Shown: positions 1 through 63,175, numbered from the stretch's first letter. The stretch: 64,000 bases of DNA from Escherichia phage vB_EcoM_DE7 (OL825705.1); one strand, 5' to 3'. The notes: a model not told the origin generated them from the sequence alone. A program made the numbers and translations.

Positions 1-1469
1 CTTAAAAGCCCTTTATAAAGCTTTCTAGGGGCTTAAAAGAGCCTTAAAAGAATCTTATAAGGGTGTAAGCTTTATTATCTCGTTAGTTATCTTATTGGTA
101 TTGCTATCAATCCCTAGTGAACTACTAAAAAGGGCTTGCTAGTGTCTTAAAAGTATGTTATAGGGGCTTAAAAGTAGCTTAAAAGTTACGTAAAAGGGGC
201 TATAAAGTTACGTAAATGCTAGCCCCCTTAACATTTTCTTAACAATTTCTTAACAATCCCTACATAGTTATACTTTTAAGGCACTTGTTAGCAACTTGTT
301 AGCCCCTTGTTAAATCTCTGTTAAAACCATGTAAAAGCCTTGTAAGAGCCTTTGACATAGCCTTTAAAGCTCCTGTAAAGCACTATAAAGAGCTTTCTAC
401 ATAGTCGGGGTGTAATTACTAGGAAGGGACTTAAAAGAGCTTACAAGGAGCTATAGAGAGCTTTTAAAAGGTATGTTTAGAGAATCACTAAGATGGAAAA
501 GGGAACGATAAGAAAAGAGTAGTGACCATGTTAATAGCTTGTTAAAAAGGTTAAACACTTGTTAGGAACTTGTTAATTATCTTAACAAAATAACTCTTAA
601 AAATTAACTTGTTAGCTCTTGTTAGTCAACTGTTAAGCCTCTGTAAAGACCATGTAGCAACTGTTAAGGAACTGTTACCCTCTTGTTAAAACTGTTAAGA
701 ATCTGTTAATACCTCTGAAGAGATGTTAAGAGGTTGTAGTAACTGTTAAGAGATTGTTAAGGATATTTTAAAATTCTGCAAAGGGGATGTTACAGGGATG
801 TTAAGGGTTACCAAGCAGATATACATCATGAGGTAGATTCTACCGAATCAACTCTACAGATATTTTTGAGTTCCTTCAAAGACCCTAAAAAATGACTTGA
901 CAACTCTATTTTATAAAAAAATTAAAATTCTGAATAATTACCTATACAGTCTTCTAAAAATACAGGCATAAACAGGCTTATAAGATACCTTGTTAGTACC
1001 GTGTTAGACCTTGTGAGATAAGGTCTGTAAAGATATTCCTGTTAAGTTTGTTAAAACAGTCTATATAGAGGCTTAGTATTTCCTAGTGAACACCTATAGA
1101 GAGTATCATAGCTGACATAATGGGTTACTGTTAAGTAACACAGGTAACCTAGAGATTAAGAGGTGTATAGGGGCTTCTAAGAGGCTATAGAGAGATGGTT
1201 AAGGTGATTGTATAGGTTGTTAAGAGGGCTTGTTAGAAGGCTTGTTAGAGGGCTATTTAGAAGGTTTATACAGAGGGCTATTAAGACCACTAGATAGTTA
1301 CTAAGATACTATATAGTACTATATAACTATATATAGAGAGTAAGCTTAAGAAGGTTGCTAAGAAGGGTAGATATTTTATTCACAGATGATGGTGACCCAG
1401 AGGTTGGGACAACCGATAAAATTTTATAAAAATTAAAAAGCCCCCAATTAAGGAGGCTCTTAAGATATT
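1..1469. repeat. Non-coding repeat-dense region with short dispersed motifs (CTTAAAAG, YTGTTAAG/TTGTTAG, AAGTTACGTAAA x2, ACTATATA x3); candidate origin, terminus or regulatory hub
   Basis: No ORF of 60 aa or more on either strand; dozens of 7-12 bp motif copies visible by eye. Confidence 0.6.
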
Positions 1470-2063
1470 TTAAATCAGTGTTTCCAGAACTGTCTTCAGT
1501 GATGACTTGGTTGTCTGATAAAAATGAGTAAATCCATTGTTGTTATCAAATACCAGCATCATGATATCATCTCCATTAATTGGGTACACTCGGATATCAT
1601 AGTAAAACCCATTAAAGACAGCAGAACCATTACAGAATGCTCTAAAGTCATCTACTGAGATATACTCTTCGTGACCTGTGATTTTTATACAAACACCTTT
1701 ACTCGGTCTCTTAGGGTTGATATCTTCCATCACAGACATACTCTGTCCACCAAGAGATACCATAGTGACCACTTTACGGTTCTTCTGTCTAAAGTACATC
1801 TTAACTTTCTGCAAAGTGTCTTCATAGAACGGATAAGACCTCTCTACAAAGATTCCTTCAAGTGGCTCTTTACCATTTTCAACTTCTCTGTTATGCCGTA
1901 CTTCAAAGATAATTTGTTGGAACCAGTCAAGATTTTCTTCGGAGAGTGCTTCCCGAATATCAGCCCAATCAAGTACTAGGTAGTTGCCTTCAACTTCTTT
2001 TAAGTTATCTTTTTTCATATCTATCACACCATTATCGTAAAACTTGGTAGTCTGGTACTGCAA
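1470..2063 (-). CDS. hypothetical protein (197 aa)
   Basis: Intact ORF, first gene of leftward cluster; no recognisable motif. Confidence 0.5.
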   Translation of the reverse strand: MQYQTTKFYDNGVIDMKKDNLKEVEGNYLVLDWADIREALSEENLDWFQQIIFEVRHNREVENGKEPLEGIFVERSYPFYEDTLQKVKMYFRQKNRKVVTMVSLGGQSMSVMEDINPKRPSKGVCIKITGHEEYISVDDFRAFCNGSAVFNGFYYDIRVYPINGDDIMMLVFDNNNGFTHFYQTTKSSLKTVLETLI

Positions 2064-2496
2064 ACTTGTTGTTGTTGTTCTTAATGAGGTCTTCTTCTGT
2101 TACTAAGAATGTAAGACCACACAAGTGTGTATATCTGCTGTCATACTCGAATACTTTAAGTAAGTATTTACCATCATGATAAACAGATTCTACTACACCT
2201 TTTGCAACAATCTTTCCAGTCTTGAAGTCTTTAAGAGGGTATACATTACCAACTTTAGGAACTGTTTTCATCTCAGGTTCTTTTAGCTTCTCACTAGCTT
2301 CTACATCACCTAGTAAGTTAGAACTTCCAAAAGCTCTGAATCTCATATAAGCTTCTGAGCATTCCCAGATAAAACAATGTACAAGAACCTTAGCAGCATG
2401 TCTTGAGCAATTCAACTCATCACAGATTTCTTTGTACATTTCATCTTTAGTTGAGTTGTTAAGCATTGCTTTTTGAACAACTTCTTTAATTTTCAT
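2032..2496 (-). CDS. hypothetical protein (154 aa)
   Basis: Intact ORF, same strand as neighbours, short overlap with downstream gene. Confidence 0.5.
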   Translation of the reverse strand: MKIKEVVQKAMLNNSTKDEMYKEICDELNCSRHAAKVLVHCFIWECSEAYMRFRAFGSSNLLGDVEASEKLKEPEMKTVPKVGNVYPLKDFKTGKIVAKGVVESVYHDGKYLLKVFEYDSRYTHLCGLTFLVTEEDLIKNNNNKFAVPDYQVLR

Positions 2497-2549
2497 TTCG
2501 CTACCTTCTAAGTTCCTATAAAGGGGCTATCAAGTAACCCCTTAAGTCA

Positions 2550-2774
2550 TTACTCAGACTTTTCAGTCTTCTTATCAGATTTCTTACTAGTCTTCTTCTC
2601 AGCTTTCTGCTCAGGTTCCTTCTCAGAAGTTTCCTTGATAATCATATCAAGAAGCTCTGATAAGTCACTCTTCAGCAGTGTAACAGGCTGCTCATTGTAG
2701 AAGTTTTTGTCAAGATAAACTTTGAACTCTTCAATAGAAGGAAATCCAAAAATTGGTACAGGTGTCTTAATCAT
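2550..2774 (-). CDS. hypothetical protein (74 aa) with Lys/Glu-rich C-terminal tail
   Basis: ORF ends ...KEPEQKAEKKTSKKSDKKTEKSE. Confidence 0.4.
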   Translation of the reverse strand: MIKTPVPIFGFPSIEEFKVYLDKNFYNEQPVTLLKSDLSELLDMIIKETSEKEPEQKAEKKTSKKSDKKTEKSE

Positions 2775-2850
2775 TACTTAGTTTCTCCATAGGCATCTTT
2801 TAAGATTGCCTTGTTAATCATTTCAGCGATTGCAAAACGAACACATACAG

Positions 2851-3384
2851 CTATAATTGTAGGTTGCATTCTTTACTTACCTCTTCCAGTTTAACCTCAG
2901 AGTTCTTGAGTCGTTTCTTATGAACTCTGAATCTTAGTAGTGAAATGATGATACCAGCTAAAGGAACAGCATACAAGTACCAAACATCATATACCTTTGC
3001 AGTAATCTGTGTAATGGTCAAGTCTTGAGCTATGTAGCTGATTGCTGATACGGCTAGTAATGTTGCTAAGAAGAAAACCAGTACCATTACCGTACTTAAA
3101 CAACCTCTGGCATGGTGTTCGTGCTTAATGCACTTATTCTTTTCGTCAACAACCCTGTTGTAGTCGTTTGTAAAGTCTCTGTAGAAAGCTTTCAAGTATT
3201 CTTGACTGTAGCCTTCAAAGCAACCTGTACCGTACCAATAATCACCACCAAAGTGTGCTATGATACCGGTATCTCCATTTGGTTTGGTTACTCTTAAAGA
3301 GACGTGATGACCAGTCTTCTGGTAGTCTATTTTATATCTTTCTTCGTAAATCATTTCCCAACCCCTCTCAATCGTTTGCTCCAC
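2851..3384 (-). CDS. putative membrane protein (177 aa)
   Basis: Long hydrophobic segments (VMVLVFFLATLLAVSAISYIA, VPLAGIIISLL). Confidence 0.45.
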   Translation of the reverse strand: MEQTIERGWEMIYEERYKIDYQKTGHHVSLRVTKPNGDTGIIAHFGGDYWYGTGCFEGYSQEYLKAFYRDFTNDYNRVVDEKNKCIKHEHHARGCLSTVMVLVFFLATLLAVSAISYIAQDLTITQITAKVYDVWYLYAVPLAGIIISLLRFRVHKKRLKNSEVKLEEVSKECNLQL

Positions 3385-3584
3385 TCAAGGTCAACAAGTC
3401 TTTGCAGGACTTTCCCTCTAGGTGTTACACCTTTTAAATCTGCATCGTAGCAACGGTAAAAGTCACCTTCAGCGTGTTTACCATAGCATTTTCTGATATT
3501 CTGACTTCTACGGTATTGTTCTAATAGAGACAGTCTGTAGTAATCTTCAACTGTAGTTAGTTTTTTCATTCTTTCACCACGCAT
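3351..3584 (-). CDS. hypothetical protein (77 aa)
   Basis: ORF in gene-dense leftward cluster. Confidence 0.35.
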   Translation of the reverse strand: MRGERMKKLTTVEDYYRLSLLEQYRRSQNIRKCYGKHAEGDFYRCYDADLKGVTPRGKVLQRLVDLEWSKRLRGVGK

Positions 3585-3652
3585 CTTCTTAAGAAACTAA
3601 AAAGGGAACTACCTCTCGATAGCTCCCATCATAGTTAACATTGTATATTCGG

Positions 3653-4234
3653 TCAAGAGTATTTTTTAGGCAGTAATGCGCTTCTCTTGTTGCTCTCTTC
3701 ACTCAATAGTGCGATAAAATCGTCACCTTTGCCTTTCCACGGGCTGAATGAAGGGATATGTTCACGAATGGCTTCAATCACTGTCTTCAGTGCTGTATTT
3801 TTCATCCACCAGTCAGAATCTGCTGATGCTACAACATAGTACCCGCCATCATCGGTAAGGATTGGCTCTGAGATACACGGTGAAATCAGAGTGGTGATAA
3901 TTGAACCATTGTTCATGTAGTATGTGCGCTTCATAACCTTTTCAAGAAGCTTGTGAAGGTCACCAAACAGTGTTACAAGCTCTTTGTGGTCAATGTCTTT
4001 TTCGAGATTTGCTCGATACTTCAAAAGTGCAGCATCAACTTCTCTGTCATTAAACTTGAAGTACTGAACTTCCTCAACAAGACAAACACTGATGTTGTTG
4101 ACATTCATAGTCAACTTGCAGACTTTTGCAGGAGAATTGATATTTGGTTGAAAAAGTGCAATACACCCTTCAATGTTTCCAAAATGTTGTACTAATGTCA
4201 CTTGTGGAGTGATACTCTGTTGCTCTTCGGACAT
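3653..4234 (-). CDS. hypothetical protein (193 aa)
   Basis: Intact ORF, no recognisable motif. Confidence 0.5.
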   Translation of the reverse strand: MSEEQQSITPQVTLVQHFGNIEGCIALFQPNINSPAKVCKLTMNVNNISVCLVEEVQYFKFNDREVDAALLKYRANLEKDIDHKELVTLFGDLHKLLEKVMKRTYYMNNGSIITTLISPCISEPILTDDGGYYVVASADSDWWMKNTALKTVIEAIREHIPSFSPWKGKGDDFIALLSEESNKRSALLPKKYS

Positions 4235-4578
4235 TACAGTTTCCTCATTAAATACTTTTTAAGTTGTGTGTTAGGTTTCTCAAAAACTTCTATAGAAGAT
4301 ATCTTGACAGATTCACCACGCATACCTGTATGTTTGAATATATAGTACTCTAACATCCCTATATACTTTGCTGGTAAGTCATGCTTGACATACACCGTTA
4401 CAGAATCTTCAAATTCAACAACCTTTGTACCATCTTTGTAGTTAAACTCTTTAGGATGGTTATAGTTGTCAATATCGTACATTAAAAAGAGTCTTTTCCG
4501 TTGCATATCAAGCTTATTGGTTAAAGACTCTTTGATATCTGAGAAGTTTTTGTACACTGTGACATGGAGCTTACTCAT
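4234..4578 (-). CDS. hypothetical protein (114 aa)
   Basis: Intact ORF, start abuts stop of upstream gene. Confidence 0.45.
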   Translation of the reverse strand: MSKLHVTVYKNFSDIKESLTNKLDMQRKRLFLMYDIDNYNHPKEFNYKDGTKVVEFEDSVTVYVKHDLPAKYIGMLEYYIFKHTGMRGESVKISSIEVFEKPNTQLKKYLMRKL

Positions 4579-4864
4579 CGTTAAACTCTCTGACGAAGAA
4601 ATAATTGACTTTATTATTACCTACCATAAGGTCAAAGCAGGTATTCTCAAAAGGTTTGTTGTAGGCATCATATGAGGTGTATGTATCAGCTACTTGTTTA
4701 GTGTTGAGCTTTTTACTTGATGGATTTAAGAGGCCACCATACAGTTTCTTGATAGCCTCTTCTACAACAGACCAGATAATTTCGTCAGTAATTTCTTCGT
4801 ACAGGTCAAGTTCACGCTCTAGTGAGAAGTCACAAATAGGGAAAATAACCTGTACTTTACTCAT
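4571..4864 (-). CDS. hypothetical protein (97 aa)
   Basis: Intact ORF, overlapping start/stop with neighbours. Confidence 0.45.
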   Translation of the reverse strand: MSKVQVIFPICDFSLERELDLYEEITDEIIWSVVEEAIKKLYGGLLNPSSKKLNTKQVADTYTSYDAYNKPFENTCFDLMVGNNKVNYFFVREFNDE

Positions 4865-5259
4865 TAACGAATAACCTGTGTGACTTGAATTGCTTCAGTT
4901 ACGGACAATTCACCTACTTTCTCTTCTTTGATAAAAGTGAAGGTGAGTTCAACAGGTTCTTCCTCTTCTTGCTCAACCGGAATACCGTTAAGCTCATCAA
5001 AGATTGATTGGGTAGTCCAGTCTTCCCCACCATCTGGATAGTGGATGGCATAAAGAGGGAACTCTAAATTATACCAAGCAAAAACAGGGCAACCATCTGC
5101 ATCATCTCGGCATCTGTGGAGATATGTGTTTGTACCTTCAAAATGCAAATGGAGATTCCCATTCTTCTCAAAGATGAGAGCATCTTGCAGGTCTAGTTCC
5201 TCATTTTCGCTGTAACGGCTAACATCGACTTTAACGTGAATATGACTGTTATTATTCAT
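4864..5259 (-). CDS. hypothetical protein (131 aa)
   Basis: Intact ORF; acidic, Cys/His-containing. Confidence 0.45.
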   Translation of the reverse strand: MNNNSHIHVKVDVSRYSENEELDLQDALIFEKNGNLHLHFEGTNTYLHRCRDDADGCPVFAWYNLEFPLYAIHYPDGGEDWTTQSIFDELNGIPVEQEEEEPVELTFTFIKEEKVGELSVTEAIQVTQVIR

Positions 5260-5650
5260 AAAAACCTCTCTCTGCTTGTTCGATTTTTGCTTTTAGAACT
5301 TCACACCTTTCAATGTGATATCTGGCTTCATTCTCATGTGTCGCCAAAGTTCTTTCAAGAATGGTTTTATAGTAACCTGAAAGTTGCTCTCTTGTCAATG
5401 GGTTCTCTGAAATAATATCAAGACCACTTTCACCTAGTGTATTAAACTGCCCATGCTCATTTACATGGTAAGTCTCAAACTTGAATAAACCGTTATTAGC
5501 AGCCTCAATAGGTGAGAGTTCAACCAACTCAACAGTAAACATTGTATGCACTCTATCACCAACTGTAACAATGTTACTTCCAATGATGCGTACAAGTGAA
5601 CCATTACGAGTGTACTTAAAAGTCCCAAAGTCACTAGCCCAAAGCTTCAT
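5252..5650 (-). CDS. hypothetical protein (about 132 aa; start moved to internal ATG)
   Basis: ATG at 5650 preceded by AAGGAG-type RBS (minus strand); the longer track ORF would run through the terminator hairpin. Confidence 0.45.
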   Translation of the reverse strand: MKLWASDFGTFKYTRNGSLVRIIGSNIVTVGDRVHTMFTVELVELSPIEAANNGLFKFETYHVNEHGQFNTLGESGLDIISENPLTREQLSGYYKTILERTLATHENEARYHIERCEVLKAKIEQAERGFYE

Positions 5651-5664
5651 AGTTTTTCTCCTTA

Positions 5665-5692
5665 GAAAATAAAAAAGGCTCCCGAAGGAGCC
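5665..5692 (-). terminator. rho-independent terminator downstream of endolysin gene
   Basis: GGCTCC-CGAA-GGAGCC hairpin followed by T-run on minus strand. Confidence 0.65.
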
Positions 5693-5702
5693 TATGAAGA
5701 TA

Positions 5703-6167
5703 TTACTTTGGGTATACACTGTCAAGATAAATGTCAGCTTCCATTCTACGTCTGTTTTTCAGACCGTTTGAAGTGACCTTCTTACCTTTGACTGTAACCT
5801 TGTTCCACCACTGCATAGCTTCTGCACAACCTACCTTGTTACCAGCATTGTGGCGCTTGATAAATGTAGAATCCTGCATAGCTGTGATACCGATGTTGTA
5901 TGTTTCACTTACAAGTGCATCGAACTCATTCTGAGAAGTTGGAACCTTGATAGCTTTATTCACTGCTGCAACAAACTTCTCAACATCTGCGAGAAGATAA
6001 TGTTCAGCTTGTTCAGCAGTAATTTTCATACCCATCTTAACAGGTTTTCCGTCAATACGGATTGTACCATACCCAATTGTTGGGATTCCGGCAGAGTCTT
6101 CGTAAGCCTCTAACTTCAGACCTTCAAAGAACTTAATAGCCTCTAAACCTTTTCTTGAGAGTTGCAT
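5703..6167 (-). CDS. endolysin, GH24 (T4/lambda-type) lysozyme
   Basis: N-terminal LEAIKFFEGLKLEAYEDSAGIPTIGYGT matches lysozyme catalytic region. Confidence 0.8.
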   Translation of the reverse strand: MQLSRKGLEAIKFFEGLKLEAYEDSAGIPTIGYGTIRIDGKPVKMGMKITAEQAEHYLLADVEKFVAAVNKAIKVPTSQNEFDALVSETYNIGITAMQDSTFIKRHNAGNKVGCAEAMQWWNKVTVKGKKVTSNGLKNRRRMEADIYLDSVYPK

Positions 6168-7300
6168 TATGCCTCCCCTGTTGGGTTAACTGTAACTGTT
6201 GCTACATTAGACGTTACAGAGCCACCTGCACCAGTAACTACACAGGTGTAGCTTCCTGCATCAGCAGCAGTTGCACCTTCTTTGGTATAAGTTGCAGTAG
6301 TTGCGTCTAGGATGTTTTCCTCACCCTTCTTCCACTGATAACCTGTCGCACCAGTAGCCACAACACTTAGTGTCAAGGTATCACCTTCAGTGATTTCTTG
6401 ATTGGTTGGCTGCTGAGTGATAACTGGCAAAGCATTTACCGTGATTGTTGCAGGGTTAGAAGTAACAGAACCTCCAGCACCAGTTACAACACAAGTATAG
6501 GAACCTGCATCTGCTGGCAGTGCACCAGACTTGCTATAGGTAGCGTTTGTAGCTGAAGGGATGTCAGAGCCATCTTTCTTCCACTGGTAACCTGTTGCAC
6601 CTGTTGCAGTCACTGATAGACTGATGTTTCCACCTTCATTAATGGTCTGGCTAGAAGGTTGCTGTGTAATCACAGGCAGTGCGTTCACAGTAACTGTTGC
6701 TGCATCTGAGGTGACACTTGTTCCACCCTCTCCAGATACAACACAAGTGTATGAACCAGCATCAGAAGGTGCTACGGATTGTTTTGTGTAAGTTGCAGAA
6801 GTGGCACTGGGGATGTCCTCACCATCCTTCTTCCACTGATATCCAGTGGCGTTAGTTGCTAGAACACTTAAAGTAAGTGTGCCACCCTCATTGACTGTTT
6901 GGCCTGTTGGTTGCTGAGTAATTGCTGGTGGCTTAATAGCATCCTTCAGCTTAGCATTCAACATTGAGAACGGCTTAACTCTTGCCAACCATTCACAATA
7001 CACTGTGTCAACGTCTTTACCATTGATGATTGCATACTGTAAATCCATGAAGAAATCAGCAGTTCTCATCTGTGCACCAACACTGTAAAGGAGTTCATCA
7101 CTAAAAGGAACTTTGTAGTCTGGTTTGTAGTCAAACTTCGCAACCTCTGCAATATCAGCTTCAGGCCAATATGAGCTATAGGTGAGTGGTAAAATAGCTT
7201 CTTGATATGTTCTAAAATCATATCTCTTACCAGCCTTTACATTTGCAACGAAACCTTTTACAAATTCTTTGAAGTCTGGGTAAGTCTTTGCTTTAATCAT
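6167..7300 (-). CDS. protein with N-terminal domain plus three tandem Ig-like domains (377 aa)
   Basis: Three about 80-aa repeats each with ITQQP...GATGYQWKKDG...AGSYTCVV...VTVN motifs. Confidence 0.6.
   Translation of the reverse strand: MIKAKTYPDFKEFVKGFVANVKAGKRYDFRTYQEAILPLTYSSYWPEADIAEVAKFDYKPDYKVPFSDELLYSVGAQMRTADFFMDLQYAIINGKDVDTVYCEWLARVKPFSMLNAKLKDAIKPPAITQQPTGQTVNEGGTLTLSVLATNATGYQWKKDGEDIPSATSATYTKQSVAPSDAGSYTCVVSGEGGTSVTSDAATVTVNALPVITQQPSSQTINEGGNISLSVTATGATGYQWKKDGSDIPSATNATYSKSGALPADAGSYTCVVTGAGGSVTSNPATITVNALPVITQQPTNQEITEGDTLTLSVVATGATGYQWKKGEENILDATTATYTKEGATAADAGSYTCVVTGAGGSVTSNVATVTVNPTGEA
6175..6950 (-). repeat. Three tandem about 240 bp coding repeats (Ig-like domains)
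   Basis: Repeated protein motifs; nucleotide repeats visible (e.g. ccactggtaacctgt...). Confidence 0.6.
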
Positions 7301-7668
7301 TTCTTTTTAGCCTCTAAACGTGCGTTTAATCTAAAATAGCCTTTGTGTTGTGGAGACACATCACTAACAACAATACCTTCAACTTTATAACCCTTACCAA
7401 TTACATACTGGATATCCATAAGAAACGTACCAAGCCCAACAATGTGGAACATTGGGTACAATAACTTATCGGAATCTGGGAGATTAATATCTGGGATGTA
7501 GGTAGGTTGTTTACTAGTTGGTGTGATATCTTCTTCAGGCCATTTGCTAAGTCTCCATGTTAAAGGTGATGCAATAACATCGTTAAGATTATATCTCTCA
7601 CCTTTCTCCACAGAATTAATATAGGATTGTAGGAAGCAATAAAAGTCTTTTGCACTCTTAGCCTTCAT
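7297..7668 (-). CDS. hypothetical protein (123 aa), paralogous to the N-terminal domain of the Ig-like protein
   Basis: MKAKSAKDF...KWPEEDI...LLYP...FLMDIQYVI parallels MIKAKTYPDF...YWPEADI...LLYS...FFMDLQYAI. Confidence 0.55.
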   Translation of the reverse strand: MKAKSAKDFYCFLQSYINSVEKGERYNLNDVIASPLTWRLSKWPEEDITPTSKQPTYIPDINLPDSDKLLYPMFHIVGLGTFLMDIQYVIGKGYKVEGIVVSDVSPQHKGYFRLNARLEAKKK

Positions 7669-7715
7669 TAAATATCCTTATAAATAGATAAAGGGGCATT
7701 AGCCCCTGTTTATAC

Positions 7716-8306
7716 TTAAGCTTTTGTCTTAAGTAAGTTCTTAAGCTTTTTGAGATTCATGCTCTCGTCAAACTTAAAACCAAATCCATTGACATAATCA
7801 ATGAACTCGGATTTCTTGCTAAGTGATAATGCGTAGCTCATATCAAAGTTATTACTTGTTTCTGCGTCTGGACTAGAGTTCACATCAAATGAAATTTCTG
7901 TAGGCTCTTGCTTGCTACTTCTCATATTATCAATCAATAGACAGGTGTAGTTCGCTGGATAGAAGTTAACACTCCCATCAACATACCCATACTTATTATT
8001 GTGAATAAGGCTGGAAAATACCTTAAGAAATGTTTCTGAGTCGTGGCATACAAGTTTGAATTGACTGCATTCCCCAAGAGCCACTAAAGAGTAAGGGCTT
8101 TCACTATCAATGTCGTAGTTTGGATTTGATGTTGTAACCGTCACACGCATCAAGTTATTAGCAATAGTCTTCTGCTTGAAAGAATTTGGGACATAGTGAA
8201 GACCTCTATCACACTGATTAACTAACTCTTTAAGTAGGTCATTTGCATATGGTGAATTAATTGATACAGAGCCATCACTATTATAATTAAAACTTACTGT
8301 TAACAT
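7716..8306 (-). CDS. hypothetical protein (196 aa)
   Basis: Intact ORF. Confidence 0.5.
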   Translation of the reverse strand: MLTVSFNYNSDGSVSINSPYANDLLKELVNQCDRGLHYVPNSFKQKTIANNLMRVTVTTSNPNYDIDSESPYSLVALGECSQFKLVCHDSETFLKVFSSLIHNNKYGYVDGSVNFYPANYTCLLIDNMRSSKQEPTEISFDVNSSPDAETSNNFDMSYALSLSKKSEFIDYVNGFGFKFDESMNLKKLKNLLKTKA

Positions 8307-8533
8307 TTTTCAGTTCTCCTGCGATTTATGATTTTGCTGCAATAGAGAAACGAAGTAAACTCACTGGAAGAAACCATTAAGTGTTGTTCACTAGATTGAG
8401 CCATTGCCCTGAAATACATTCCAGTCAAAGCATCATAGTGACTATTCTTTCCAATTGAGATTATATAGCCATGACTCTTTGCAGTTTTATATAAATCTAT
8501 AATATCTGCGATTTCTAATTGGGAACTACACAT
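8300..8533 (-). CDS. hypothetical protein (77 aa)
   Basis: ORF directly downstream of divergent promoter region. Confidence 0.35.
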   Translation of the reverse strand: MCSSQLEIADIIDLYKTAKSHGYIISIGKNSHYDALTGMYFRAMAQSSEQHLMVSSSEFTSFLYCSKIINRRRTEKC

Positions 8534-8768
8534 AGATAATCCTCTTGTCTTCTGTAATTTTGAAAGAACAGGTACAGACCAATTTCAGAGGATGAATAGT
8601 AGAGTGACTCTACCCTTTTTGATTCCTTACAGTGATTGGTATTTTTACCTTTCTTCGGGTTGTTTGATTTTCTCATTAAGTCTCCTTTGTAGAACAAGGC
8701 AGACCTACAGCTTTAAGTAAGATGGTACAGTAATCCATACAACAAGTCAAGAACTATTACAAGTTAAA

Positions 8769-8816
8769 AAAGTTGTTGACAAAGGACTTGACAAGGTGTA
8801 GGCTTATAAATACTTA
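8769..8816. promoter_or_regulatory. Divergent promoter region with tandem TTGACA element (GTTGACAAAGGACTTGACAAGGTGT)
   Basis: AT-rich upstream tract, two TTGACA hexamers 12 bp apart; near-identical element at 50052-50080. Confidence 0.45.
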
Positions 8817-8925
8817 GAAGATAACTTAAAAGGTTCCTCTAAAAAGGCTATTTAAACAGATATCTTTCTGGATATCTATCTTTTATCTTAAAAGCCTTTT
8901 AAGAGGTCTTATAAGAGGCATACCA

Positions 8926-9297
8926 ATGAAAAACAGAACAAACAAAGGCCAGTTTAAAAAAGGCCAGTCTGGAAACCCATCTGGAAGACCAAAAGGCTCT
9001 CGTAACAAAAGCTCTCTCGTAAAAGCTCAGCTGACCATTGATAATTCTGCTGAGTTTGCTGCAAAGTTGTTTGAGGCAATTGTTACAAGGGACGCTGCTA
9101 AGCTTGCAGAGTTCGGTTTGACGACTGACGATGTAAACCTGAAGTCAATGATGGAAGCTGGTAAAACTATCATGACCCACTCAGCAGGTGAGATGAAAGC
9201 AATTGCAGCAGACACTAAGAAGACCCCTGATAACGGTGGTCAGTCTCAGACAGATAACAAACCAACGTTCTCTGCTGTAGCGACTCTCAAAAAATAA
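8926..9297 (+). CDS. hypothetical basic protein with KGQSGNPSGRPKG motif (123 aa)
   Basis: ATG with AAGAGG RBS; Gly/Pro/basic N-terminal motif; function unknown. Confidence 0.5.
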   Translation: MKNRTNKGQFKKGQSGNPSGRPKGSRNKSSLVKAQLTIDNSAEFAAKLFEAIVTRDAAKLAEFGLTTDDVNLKSMMEAGKTIMTHSAGEMKAIAADTKKTPDNGGQSQTDNKPTFSAVATLKK

Positions 9298-9309
9298 TTT
9301 TAAAAGGTG

Positions 9310-9339
9310 TTGACAGACTCTACAAAGTTGCTCTAAAGT
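9310..9339 (+). promoter_or_regulatory. sigma70-like promoter (TTGACA-N18-TAAAGT)
   Basis: Hexamers with AAAAG upstream tract, before the vWA gene. Confidence 0.4.
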
Positions 9340-9378
9340 CTGTCACATCAAACAACAAATGAGAGAAGAGAGTAAAAT

Positions 9379-63151: not shown

Positions 63152-63175
63152 AGGGTCTCTTCGGAGACCTTTTTA
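63152..63175 (+). terminator. rho-independent terminator
   Basis: GGGTCTC-TTCG-GAGACC hairpin followed by TTTTT. Confidence 0.7.

What the first reader, a model, noticed from the sequence alone, without database searches (positions are those of the whole stretch)
1470..5650. Leftward cluster of ten small genes of unknown function next to the repeat region
Ten consecutive, tightly packed ORFs of 74-197 aa, many with overlapping stops and starts, have no recognisable motifs. They are transcribed from the divergent promoter region at about 8700. Such blocks in lytic phages often encode host-takeover or anti-defence proteins, but nothing in the sequence identifies a specific function.
Basis: inference. 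Interest (0 to 1): 0.4.

Follow-up and report, generated by a model that had tools for sequence, protein, structure and literature searches.

The report
Conserved unknown-function gene block, Felix-O1-like phage
The ten small leftward genes are real, conserved, non-structural genes of a Felix-O1-like coliphage (DE7) that form two separate operons beside the physical end of the genome; their functions are still unknown, so the finding is correct but ordinary.

Summary
The window is Escherichia phage vB_EcoM_DE7 (Felixounavirus). The ten ORFs exist as described, and there is an eleventh of 31 aa. All are under purifying selection and are syntenic in about 250 sequenced Ounavirinae. In Bas63 they are gp112-gp122. 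No Pfam, NCBIfam, PADLOC or PDB-sequence match is significant. All eleven PHROG families are labelled 'unknown function'.

New points from this work:
- The block is not one transcript from ~8700. Three intrinsic terminators intervene, and two conserved sigma70-type promoters, each abutting a terminator stem, define operon A (g10-g6) and operon B (g5-g1).
- g8-g7-g6 is an ancient, translationally coupled, highly constrained trio. It is kept in order even in Yersinia and Pectobacterium relatives.
- Operon B is plastic. It has insertion hot spots and domains shared with T4-, T7- and N4-like phages. It encodes a two-TM membrane protein and a protein whose C-terminal domain is predicted to have a Whirly-like fold, which is typical of ssDNA/RNA binders.
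- The label 'D-alanyl-D-alanine carboxypeptidase' given to g9 homologues in some records is unsupported.
- The block ends about 650 bp from the direct terminal repeat.

Published Bas63 knockouts show host-dependent need for the g3 and g4 homologues. No gene of the block is among that paper's named or validated anti-defence counters. Interest is modest.

The parts
1470..2018 (-). g1, 182 aa (= Bas63 gp112). It has an N-terminal helical domain (about residues 10-87), which is also found in a T4-like phage protein. Its C-terminal domain (residues 80-182) is predicted to have a Whirly-like (beta4-alpha)x2 fold.
2032..2496 (-). g2, 154 aa (= gp113). The N-terminal 50 aa read like a helix-turn-helix (my reading of the sequence, not a tool result) and are shared with small ORFs of Klebsiella T7-like and N4-like phages. 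The C-terminal half is variable.
   Evidence: (phrog_9565). Alignment A4.
2550..2774 (-). g3, 74 aa (= gp114). It has a conserved 45-aa N-terminal part and a Lys/Glu-rich tail. The Bas63 homologue is conditionally important in E. coli S17-1.
   Evidence: PMC11482910.
It is conserved in three genera.
   Evidence: (phrog_6279, E 2.7e-23).
2851..3354 (-). g4, 167 aa (= gp116). It is a membrane protein with a soluble N-terminal domain, two hydrophobic helices (about residues 86-108 and 128-150) and a conserved charged C-terminus. Residues 45-81 match the GpsB/DivIVA N-terminal motif weakly.
   Evidence: hydropathy 2.46. (annotated as membrane protein).. (GpsB, E 0.02). PMC11482910.
3351..3584 (-). 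g5, 77 aa (72 aa from the conserved ATG at 3569) (= gp117). It is basic (pI 9.9) and is the first gene of operon B.
3604..3656 (-). Terminator of operon A fused to the promoter of operon B: TTGACC-N17-TATGAT, followed directly by the hairpin GGGAGCTATC-GAGA-GGTAGTTCCC and T5. The -35 overlaps the g6 stop codon.
   Evidence: The hexamers and hairpin are invariant and the spacer variable in 10 phages of 3 genera..
3653..4234 (-). g6, 193 aa (= gp118). It is the last gene of operon A and a member of the ancient trio. Its family is tiny, with invariant G, WW and PW motifs.
   Evidence: 19 clusters, all Ounavirinae. (15 representatives among 1.84 billion).. AF2 pLDDT 69 with no fold match.
4234..4578 (-). 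g7, 114 aa, basic (pI 9.3) (= gp119). Member of the trio.
   Evidence: (homologues in Yersinia P778 and Pectobacterium Arno18, adjacent to the g6 homologue). (dN/dS 0.02-0.03).
4571..4864 (-). g8, 97 aa, acidic (pI 4.5) (= gp120). Member of the trio.
   Evidence: (homologue in P778)..
4864..5259 (-). g9, 131 aa, acidic (= gp121). Some records label its homologue 'D-alanyl-D-alanine carboxypeptidase'. That label has no support.
   Evidence: the label. (no peptidase match).
5252..5650 (-). g10, 132 aa (= gp122). It is the first gene of operon A and has a Gly/Val-rich N-terminal half and a charged C-terminal third (my reading: beta-rich then helical).
5670..5725 (-). Terminator after the endolysin fused to the promoter of operon A: TTGACA-N17-TATCTT, 4 nt, then the hairpin GGCTCC-TTCG-GGAGCC and T6.
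1436..1461 (-). Intrinsic terminator that closes operon B.
   Evidence: Annotated in relatives.
220..814 (.). Context: the equivalent of the direct terminal repeat (the physical genome ends). It is bracketed by inverted, 11-bp-phased TGTTAA arrays.
   Evidence: 87% identity to the annotated DTR of UAB_69. DTR of 608 bp shown experimentally for UAB_Phi87: PMC4837284. Repeats.

Best explanation
The block is a conserved, non-structural accessory region of Ounavirinae phages. It lies between two late-type genes (the Hex-Dec decoration protein and the endolysin) and the physical end of the genome. It consists of two insulated operons.

Transcription. Each operon starts at a sigma70-type promoter whose -10 element abuts the stem of the preceding intrinsic terminator. 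Upstream transcripts should therefore stop at the hairpin. Transcripts started locally would begin inside the hairpin's 5' arm and escape termination.

Operon A (g10-g9-g8-g7-g6). It encodes five soluble, translationally coupled proteins. The trio g8 (acidic), g7 (basic) and g6 is the ancient core. I infer that they act together, most likely as a hetero-oligomeric cytoplasmic complex, in an intracellular step of the infection cycle that every member of the subfamily needs.

Operon B (g5-g4-g3b-g3-g2-g1). It is a plastic set of host-interaction proteins. It includes an inner-membrane protein (g4), small charged proteins (g5, g3) and two likely nucleic-acid binders (g2 with an HTH-like N-domain, g1 with a Whirly-like C-domain). 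These tune infection in a host-dependent way.

Shown: the genes, their conservation and selection, the operon signals, the domain sharing, the predicted fold of g1, and the absence of these proteins from the listed virion proteins.

Inferred: the complex formation, the nucleic-acid binding, the timing of expression, and every biochemical function.
For: Genes and constraint:
-. dN/dS is 0.02-0.42. g6-g8 are lowest, at 0.02-0.11 within the genus.

Two operons:
- Terminator-like hairpins lie at 5693-5676, 3627-3604 and 1461-1436, and promoter-like sites at 5725-5697 and 3656-3628.
- In 10 phages of 3 genera the -35 and -10 hexamers and the hairpins are invariant while the 17-18 nt spacer varies.
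- Five of 46 terminator-like hairpins in the window have an abutting promoter-like site, against 0-1 in shifted controls. The two in this block score highest.

Coupling:
- Start/stop overlaps of 1 or 8 nt run all through operon A.

Ancient trio:
- g6 and g7 homologues are adjacent and in the same order in Yersinia phage P778 and Pectobacterium phage Arno18. A g8 homologue is also present in P778. g1-g5, g9 and g10 are not detectable there.

Plasticity of operon B:
- Relatives carry extra genes between g6 and g5 and between g3 and g2.
- The g1 N-domain occurs in a T4-like phage next to Vs.1 and PhoH.
- The g2 N-domain occurs in Klebsiella T7-likes between the ligase and a 699-nt gene, and in N4-likes.

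g1 fold:
- The AF2 model has pLDDT 82, and above 90 over residues 80-182.

Non-structural:
- The Bas63 virion has at least 23 gene products. Of the two capsid decoration proteins, one (Hex-Dec) is encoded more than 10 kb outside the structural module, and no other out-of-module virion gene is mentioned in the passages read (PMC12609058).
- The visible rows of the Sf14 virion protein table go from gp20 (the Hex-Dec homologue) to gp29 and above, with nothing from this block (PMC11821841).

Host dependence:
- gp114 (g3) and gp116 (g4) are more essential in S17-1 (PMC11482910).
Against: - No transcript data exist for any Felixounavirus, so the promoters, terminators and timing are predictions.
- The -35 of the operon A promoter lies inside the endolysin coding sequence, so its conservation may be due to coding.
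- Complex formation of g8-g7-g6 rests only on synteny, coupling and constraint.
- The g6 model is mediocre (pLDDT 69) and matches no fold.
- I could not read the per-gene Bas63 fitness values for gp112-gp122, because no supplement is held.
Confidence: 0.5

Rival explanations
1. Anti-defence island. The small proteins are independent inhibitors of host immune systems, expressed early.
For: - They are small, soluble, charged proteins of unknown function, and operon B has insertion hot spots.
- Domains are shared with early regions of T4-like and T7-like phages.
- The g3 and g4 homologues are conditionally essential on one host (PMC11482910).
- Bas63 carries proven counter-defence genes elsewhere, including gp130, which lies only about 4 kb away.
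Against: - None of gp112-gp122 is named among the counters or triggers for the 12 defence systems analysed.
- g6-g8 are strongly constrained and deeply conserved, unlike typical arms-race genes.
- There are no matches in PADLOC or Pfam.
- Early timing is not shown.
Confidence: 0.2
2. Core late or DNA-end function. Operon A, especially g8-g7-g6, works in genome-end processing, replication initiation or packaging at the adjacent terminal repeat, or as non-virion assembly chaperones. It would be co-regulated with the neighbouring late genes.
For: - The block directly follows Hex-Dec and the endolysin, and ends 650 bp from the DTR equivalent.
- TGTTAA arrays in the gap are 13-fold enriched. TGTTAA is the top hexamer in six of the eight gaps examined, including distant Arno18, and second or third in the others. 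That is the same phyletic depth as the g6-g7 pair.
- g7 is basic.
- Constraint is strong.
Against: - No DNA-binding or enzyme motif is found in g6, g7 or g8.
- Co-occurrence of the genes and the repeats is expected anyway in related genomes.
- Terminators insulate the operon from the late genes.
Confidence: 0.2
3. Lysis accessory cassette. g4 (two TM helices), g3b and their neighbours act as holin, antiholin or lysis regulators for the nearby endolysin.
For: - g4 has two hydrophobic helices and a charged C-terminus.
- The endolysin is 2.3 kb upstream.
- The Bas63 authors speculated about a lysis role for gp116.
Against: - The Bas63 spanins are annotated elsewhere, at gp89-gp90, and the paper places lysis proteins such as holins in the ~46-66 kb segment.
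- g4 has an 85-aa soluble N-domain that is atypical for holins.
- Two terminators separate it from the endolysin.
- The other ten proteins are soluble.
Confidence: 0.07

Closest known systems
Bas63 (JohannRWettstein) gp112-gp122 and Felix O1 ORF54-ORF73: the same genes in studied relatives
   Same: The gene order is identical one-for-one, at 84-100% amino-acid identity. All are annotated as hypothetical. Genome-wide knockout fitness data exist for Bas63 (PMC11482910).
   Different: Nothing substantive. Bas63, like DE7, lacks the extra genes that Felix O1, UAB_69, SUSP2 and Mooglevirus carry at the two insertion hot spots.
Clusters of non-essential small genes of T4 (such as the vs/regB region) and the T7 gene 1.4-2 region
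   Same: They are tightly packed small ORFs with overlapping stops and starts, mostly dispensable, read by host RNA polymerase from sigma70-type promoters. Two domains are literally shared: the g1 N-domain with Maroon gp148 next to Vs.1, and the g2 N-domain with a 60-aa ORF between the ligase and a 699-nt gene of Klebsiella T7-likes. The position of that ORF relative to T7 genes is my own reading.
   Different: Early timing is not shown here. Operon A is far more conserved than typical T4 accessory genes, and it lies downstream of late-type genes.
T5 pre-early (first-step-transfer) region
   Same: It is a block of small genes next to a direct terminal repeat at one physical end of the genome, with predicted strong host-type promoters.
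   Different: The genes lie outside the repeat and are transcribed towards the end. There is no sequence similarity. The polarity of DNA entry in Felixounavirus is unknown, and no two-step transfer is known.
Whirly / MRP1-MRP2 / PUR-alpha / SsgB fold group (for the g1 C-domain only)
   Different: Identity is 6-14% and there is no Pfam Whirly, SsgA or PurA match. The plant Whirly KGKAAL motif is absent from the sequence. The oligomeric state and ligand are unknown.

Membership tests
VanY / peptidase M15 D-alanyl-D-alanine carboxypeptidase (label on g9 homologues in ekra, warpig and the BPS17 phages) | Significant match to a VanY or Peptidase_M15 profile | tested here: not met
   g9 has no Pfam or NCBIfam match at E <= 1. 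No such family appears among hits of three divergent g9 orthologues at E <= 0.05. The profile search of PDB sequences found nothing at E <= 1.
VanY / peptidase M15 D-alanyl-D-alanine carboxypeptidase | Zn-binding His / Asp / His triad (the SxHxxGxAxD and ExxH type motifs, from my own knowledge) | tested here: not met
   I read alignment A6 directly. The only invariant His is H73, in the AxHYPDGxEDW stretch. No SxHxxGxAxD or ExxH pattern is present.
Pfam DUF5092 (g6) | Score at or above the gathering threshold (27 bits) | tested here: not met
   The score is 20.4 bits, E 5.5e-4. Three orthologues also match below threshold, best E 5.9e-5.
Pfam DUF5092 (g6) | Remote members of the g6 family also match the model | tested here: inconclusive
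   Only 2 of 14 family members match at E <= 0.01, the window protein and one other. At least ten of the eleven remote homologues found by the exhaustive search do not.
Whirly-like fold group (g1 C-domain) | Topology of two beta4-alpha repeats | tested here: met
Whirly-like fold group (g1 C-domain) | Sequence-level homology to the Pfam Whirly, SsgA or PurA families | tested here: not met
   None of the 36 family members matches these families at E <= 1. The PDB profile search was empty.
Whirly-like fold group (g1 C-domain) | Binding of single-stranded DNA or RNA; oligomerisation | not testable with these tools
   This needs EMSA or fluorescence anisotropy and SEC-MALS on purified protein.
DivIVA / GpsB N-terminal domain (g4 residues 45-81) | Significant profile match to the DivIVA/GpsB lipid- and PBP-binding domain | tested here: inconclusive
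   The profile of 5 orthologues hits three GpsB chains at E 0.021-0.023 over 36 residues, sharing GY..E...AF..D...DY. No Pfam DivIVA match is listed.
Phage counter-defence genes as defined experimentally in Bas63 (PhageMaP) | The knockout becomes less fit only in the presence of a defence system, and this is validated clonally | not tested
   The counters named in the paper are g77, g79, g80, g84, g85 and g130. gp112-gp122 are not mentioned in that context. The per-gene tables were not available.
Holin / lysis cassette (g4, g3b) | Small membrane protein encoded with the endolysin and spanins in one lysis cassette | tested here: not met
   Spanins are annotated at bas63_0089-0090, about 12 kb away. 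Two terminators lie between the endolysin and g4. g4 carries an 85-aa soluble N-domain.
T5-type pre-early terminal block | Located at a physical genome end next to or inside the terminal repeat | tested here: met
   The DTR equivalent is window 220-814 and g1 ends at 1470. The DTR was shown experimentally in UAB_Phi87 (PMC4837284).
T5-type pre-early terminal block | First DNA to enter the cell, expressed before the rest, causing host shut-off | not testable with these tools
   No data on entry polarity or timing exist for Felixounavirus in the literature I searched.

The most novel reading that the evidence does not exclude
The deeply conserved, translationally coupled trio g8-g7-g6 is a dedicated protein complex that recognises the inverted, 11-bp-phased TGTTAA arrays bracketing the direct terminal repeat 650 bp away. 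It would act in generating or protecting the genome ends, or in starting replication there. The Whirly-like g1 and HTH-like g2 of operon B may assist. This would be a previously undescribed terminus-handling system specific to Ounavirinae.
Probability: 0.1. Interest if true: 0.6.

Novelty: already known. Interest (0 to 1): 0.3.

Why it matters
Felix-O1-like phages are widely used for Salmonella and E. coli typing, biocontrol and therapy, yet about two thirds of their genes have no assigned function. This block makes up about 5% of the genome and is present in every sequenced member.

Knowing that it is two insulated operons turns an undifferentiated list of hypothetical proteins into a few testable units. 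One operon holds an ancient three-gene core. The other is a plastic set containing a membrane protein and likely nucleic-acid binders.

The work also removes a misleading enzyme label (D-Ala-D-Ala carboxypeptidase) that is spreading through GenBank records. None of this is surprising to a specialist. It refines the annotation of already catalogued genes and does not reveal a new kind of system.

Tried and rejected
1. A concatenate of the five operon A proteins was sent to the 5.8-billion-protein search. It returned no hits. This was a method failure, because the single proteins are in the collection. One search was wasted.
2. DUF5092 for g6. The matches are consistent but below threshold, and the remote family members do not share them. 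I did not adopt it.
3. SNAD1/deaminase, Sda, CsoS2_M, 8xMP, DUF7565 and AriAB hits are all isolated, short and below cut-off. I treated them as chance.
4. The D-Ala-D-Ala carboxypeptidase label for g9 is rejected.
5. Paralogy among the ten proteins: there is none (all-against-all BLASTP).
7. BFVD fold search for g1 found only its own orthologue.
8. The AFDB library was not available.
9. Rfam on 1-9500 found no RNA family.
10. Transcriptome or timing data for Felixounavirus: none found.
11. PhageMaP per-gene fitness tables are not held.
12. I considered a T7 Gp2-like RNA polymerase inhibitor for the g2 N-domain, because its Klebsiella-phage homologue sits where I would expect gene 2. The sequence does not resemble T7 Gp2 as I recall it, so I dropped the idea.
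13. One redundant megablast was run by mistake.

Full report
**Identity of the window.** Megablast of the first 9 kb finds 255 phage records, nearly all Felixounavirus or related Ounavirinae of E. coli, Salmonella, Shigella and Citrobacter. The best hit is 94.8% identical. All ten predicted proteins are identical to GenBank proteins UKH49230-UKH49240 of Escherichia phage vB_EcoM_DE7, where each is called 'hypothetical protein'. The surroundings fit this genus:
- endolysin at 5703-6167
- Ig-repeat protein at 6167-7300
- a 471-aa gene at 9379-10794 at the position of Bas63 gp130, annotated vWFA or RNA-binding protein in relatives and described as Ro60-like in PMC11482910
- 24 tRNA genes from 10960 onwards

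**Check of the observation.** The starts I chose from the candidate starts and their upstream sequences give products identical to the DE7 GenBank proteins, and the relatives annotate the same gene lengths:

| Gene | Coordinates | Length |
|---|---|---|
| g1 | 1470-2018 | 182 aa |
| g2 | 2032-2496 | 154 aa |
| g3 | 2550-2774 | 74 aa |
| g4 | 2851-3354 | 167 aa |
| g5 | 3351-3584 | 77 aa (72 aa from the conserved ATG at 3569) |
| g6 | 3653-4234 | 193 aa |
| g7 | 4234-4578 | 114 aa |
| g8 | 4571-4864 | 97 aa |
| g9 | 4864-5259 | 131 aa |
| g10 | 5252-5650 | 132 aa |

Stops and starts overlap by 8, 1, 8 and 1 nt in g10-g6, and by 4, 19 and 1 nt in g5-g3. One gene was missed: a 31-aa ORF at 2774-2869. 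It is annotated in Bas63, UAB_69, SUSP2 and Mordin, has its own PHROG, and is 64-100% identical across three genera.

The ORFs are real genes. All eleven keep their order and length in Felixounavirus, Suspvirus and Mooglevirus at 46-76% amino-acid identity between genera. Pairwise dN/dS is 0.02-0.42, mostly below 0.25.

**Homology searches.**
- Pfam, NCBIfam and PADLOC give nothing above threshold for any of the ten proteins.
- Scanning three divergent orthologues of most of the genes, plus the extra genes of relatives, adds nothing.
- Each protein matches one PHROG of 'unknown function'.
- Profiles of orthologues searched against all PDB chain sequences give no significant hit for g1, g2, g4, g6, g7, g8, g9 or g10.
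- The ten proteins are not paralogues of each other.
- The label 'D-alanyl-D-alanine carboxypeptidase' on g9 homologues in several records has no support from profiles or motifs. It appears to be a propagated annotation error.

**Transcription.** Leftward sigma70-like sites exist in the divergent region: TTGTCA-N18-AATAGT at 8782-8753 and TTGACT-N17-TACCAT at 8750-8722. However, four strong terminator-like hairpins with T-runs lie on the minus strand, at 7707-7692, 5693-5676, 3627-3604 and 1461-1436. Relatives annotate the same sites.

Directly after the endolysin stop codon the sequence reads TTGACA-N17-TATCTT, 4 nt, then GGCTCC-TTCG-GGAGCC-T6. Directly after g6 it reads TTGACC-N17-TATGAT, followed at once by GGGAGCTATC-GAGA-GGTAGTTCCC-T5.

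In an alignment of ten phages from three genera, the TTGAC, the TATGAT and the hairpin downstream of g6 are invariant, while the 17-18 nt spacer is freely variable. This is the pattern expected of a functional promoter. At the other site the hairpin and the TTGAC are invariant, and the -10 keeps the form TAnnTT. There the -35 lies in endolysin coding sequence, so the case is weaker.

Because the -10 element touches the terminator stem, a transcript started there would begin inside the 5' arm. It could not form the full hairpin, whereas incoming transcripts would be stopped. Window-wide, 5 of 46 terminator-like hairpins have such an abutting promoter, against 0-1 in shifted controls, and the two in this block score best.

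I conclude, as an inference, that the block is two insulated operons: A = g10-g6 and B = g5-g1. No transcript data for this genus were found.

**Operon A.** It is one-for-one conserved between its two terminators in all three genera. It is fully translationally coupled and holds the most constrained genes. Within the genus, dN/dS is 0.04-0.06 for g6, 0.02-0.03 for g7 and 0.03-0.11 for g8.

A word-indexed search of 5.8 billion proteins finds only 19 g6 clusters, all Ounavirinae. An exhaustive profile search of 1.84 billion representatives finds 15 proteins in total. They share invariant G, WW and P-W positions. One remote member is from Yersinia phage vB_YenM_P778. Others are in Pectobacterium phage Arno18 and Hafnia phages.

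In P778 and Arno18, profile HMMs detect g7 homologues immediately upstream of the g6 homologue, and a g8 homologue upstream of that in P778. g9, g10 and all of operon B are undetectable there. So g8-g7-g6 is an ancient, ordered trio, and a complex is the simplest reading.

**Operon B.** Relatives carry additional genes at two hot spots:
- between g6 and g5: Felix O1 ORF62, UAB_69 gp036, SUSP2 gp114, Mordin_99 (phrog_5380)
- between g3 and g2: AYO145A gp031, ASO1B_030/031, Mordin_104/105 (phrog_7193, phrog_9967)

All of these are of unknown function.

*g2.* Its first 50 residues read like a helix-turn-helix, and they recur in two other phage groups (this reading is mine, not a tool result):
- as a 60-aa ORF between the DNA ligase and a 699-nt gene (SSB-sized, by my reading) of Klebsiella T7-like phages
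- in N4-like Gamaleyavirus

*g4.* It has an 85-aa soluble domain, two hydrophobic helices and a conserved EEVSKECNL tail. Residues 45-81 match the GpsB/DivIVA N-terminal motif weakly (E 0.02). I treat this as a lead only.

*g3 and g5.* g3 carries a Lys/Glu-rich tail, and g5 is basic.

**Published experiments on the same genes.** Bas63 has the identical gene order, with gp112-gp122 equal to g1-g10 plus the 31-aa ORF. The PhageMaP knockout study (PMC11482910) reports the following:
- The 66-80 kb region, which contains this block, holds small hypothetical genes of varying essentiality.
- gp114 (g3) and gp116 (g4) are more essential in E. coli S17-1.

The counters and triggers that paper names lie elsewhere.

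Cryo-EM of Bas63 finds at least 23 virion gene products. Of the two capsid decoration proteins, one (Hex-Dec, which is window 6167-7300) is encoded more than 10 kb outside the structural module, and no other out-of-module virion gene is mentioned in the passages read (PMC12609058). The visible rows of the Sf14 virion protein table go from gp20 (the Hex-Dec homologue) to gp29 and above, with nothing from this block (PMC11821841). The ten proteins are therefore non-structural as far as current data go.

**Position in the genome.** Window 1-1435 has no ORF of 40 aa or more. It is filled with 11-bp-phased short repeats. Window 220-814 is 87% identical to the 618-bp DTR annotated in UAB_69. A 608-bp DTR was shown experimentally for the sister phage UAB_Phi87 (PMC4837284).

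The hexamer TGTTAA occurs 15.3 times per kb in the gap, against 1.2 per kb in coding DNA. It sits in opposite orientations near the two DTR borders. It is the top hexamer in six of the eight gaps examined, including Arno18, and second or third in the other two. The block is thus the last transcription unit before a physical genome end, and it is transcribed towards that end. Whether that end enters the cell first is unknown.

**Verdict.** The transcription claim needs correcting, and the anti-defence idea is neither supported nor excluded.

My best reading (confidence 0.5) is a two-operon, non-structural accessory region. It has a conserved core complex (g8-g7-g6 and their partners) and a plastic set of host-interaction proteins that includes likely nucleic-acid binders and a membrane protein.

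The rivals are an anti-defence island (0.2), a genome-end or late-function module (0.2) and a lysis accessory cassette (0.07). The genes are already catalogued in about 250 genomes and in a knockout screen, so novelty is low and interest modest (0.3). The most novel reading still open is that the trio handles the TGTTAA-flanked genome ends (probability about 0.1).

Noticed in passing
window 1-1435 (DTR equivalent 220-814): A gap with no ORF of 40 aa or more is packed with 11-bp-phased repeats built on TGTTAA(G)/CTTGTTA. The hexamer occurs 15.3 times per kb, against 1.2 per kb in coding DNA. It lies in opposite orientation near the two borders of the direct-terminal-repeat equivalent (TTAACA at 228-250; TGTTAA at 631-799). 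It is the top hexamer in six of the eight Ounavirinae gaps examined, including distant Pectobacterium phage Arno18. These are probably recognition arrays for end formation or replication.
   Followed up: partly
window 3604-3656 and 5670-5725 (minus strand): Sigma70-type promoters whose -10 hexamer abuts the stem of an intrinsic terminator, so that the predicted start site lies inside the hairpin. The hexamers and hairpins are conserved in three genera, with a variable spacer at the site downstream of g6. Three further, weaker examples lie at 63154, 28805 and 1461.
   Followed up: partly
window 7297-7668 versus 6167-7300: The 123-aa protein encoded just upstream of the Hex-Dec (Ig-repeat decoration) gene matches phrog_3995, the 'tail protein' family (E 2e-15). 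Read side by side, it resembles the N-terminal, capsid-binding end of Hex-Dec. It may be a truncated duplicate, or an alternative protein that binds the hexamer centre.
   Followed up: no
window 2497-2549 and 3585-3652: Two insertion hot spots. Relatives carry one to three extra genes of unknown function here (phrog_7193 and phrog_9967 between g3 and g2; phrog_5380 between g6 and g5). DE7 and Bas63 have the minimal version.
   Followed up: partly
window 9379-10794 and 10960-16410: A 471-aa gene (annotated vWFA or RNA-binding protein in relatives) sits at the position of Bas63 gp130, directly upstream of 24 tRNA genes. gp130 is described as Ro60-like and reported to counter the ppl defence system.
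   Followed up: no
public records seen through: Felixounavirus sequences appear under unrelated names: Staphylococcus phage SA1 (GU169904), Staphylococcus hyicus, Staphylococcus aureus and Methanobrevibacter gottschalkii protein records. These are most likely contamination or chimeric assemblies.
   Followed up: no
window 4234-4864 (g7 and g8): The 90%-identity clustering of the big protein collection puts g7 and g8 in one cluster. I read this as a sign that some assemblies may carry a fused g8-g7 reading frame, since the two genes overlap by 8 nt.
   Followed up: no
window 1470-2063: Upstream of the g1 start the frame stays open, and gene callers in Mooglevirus and Suspvirus give 203-227 aa products. 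The true N-terminus of g1 in those genera is uncertain.
   Followed up: no
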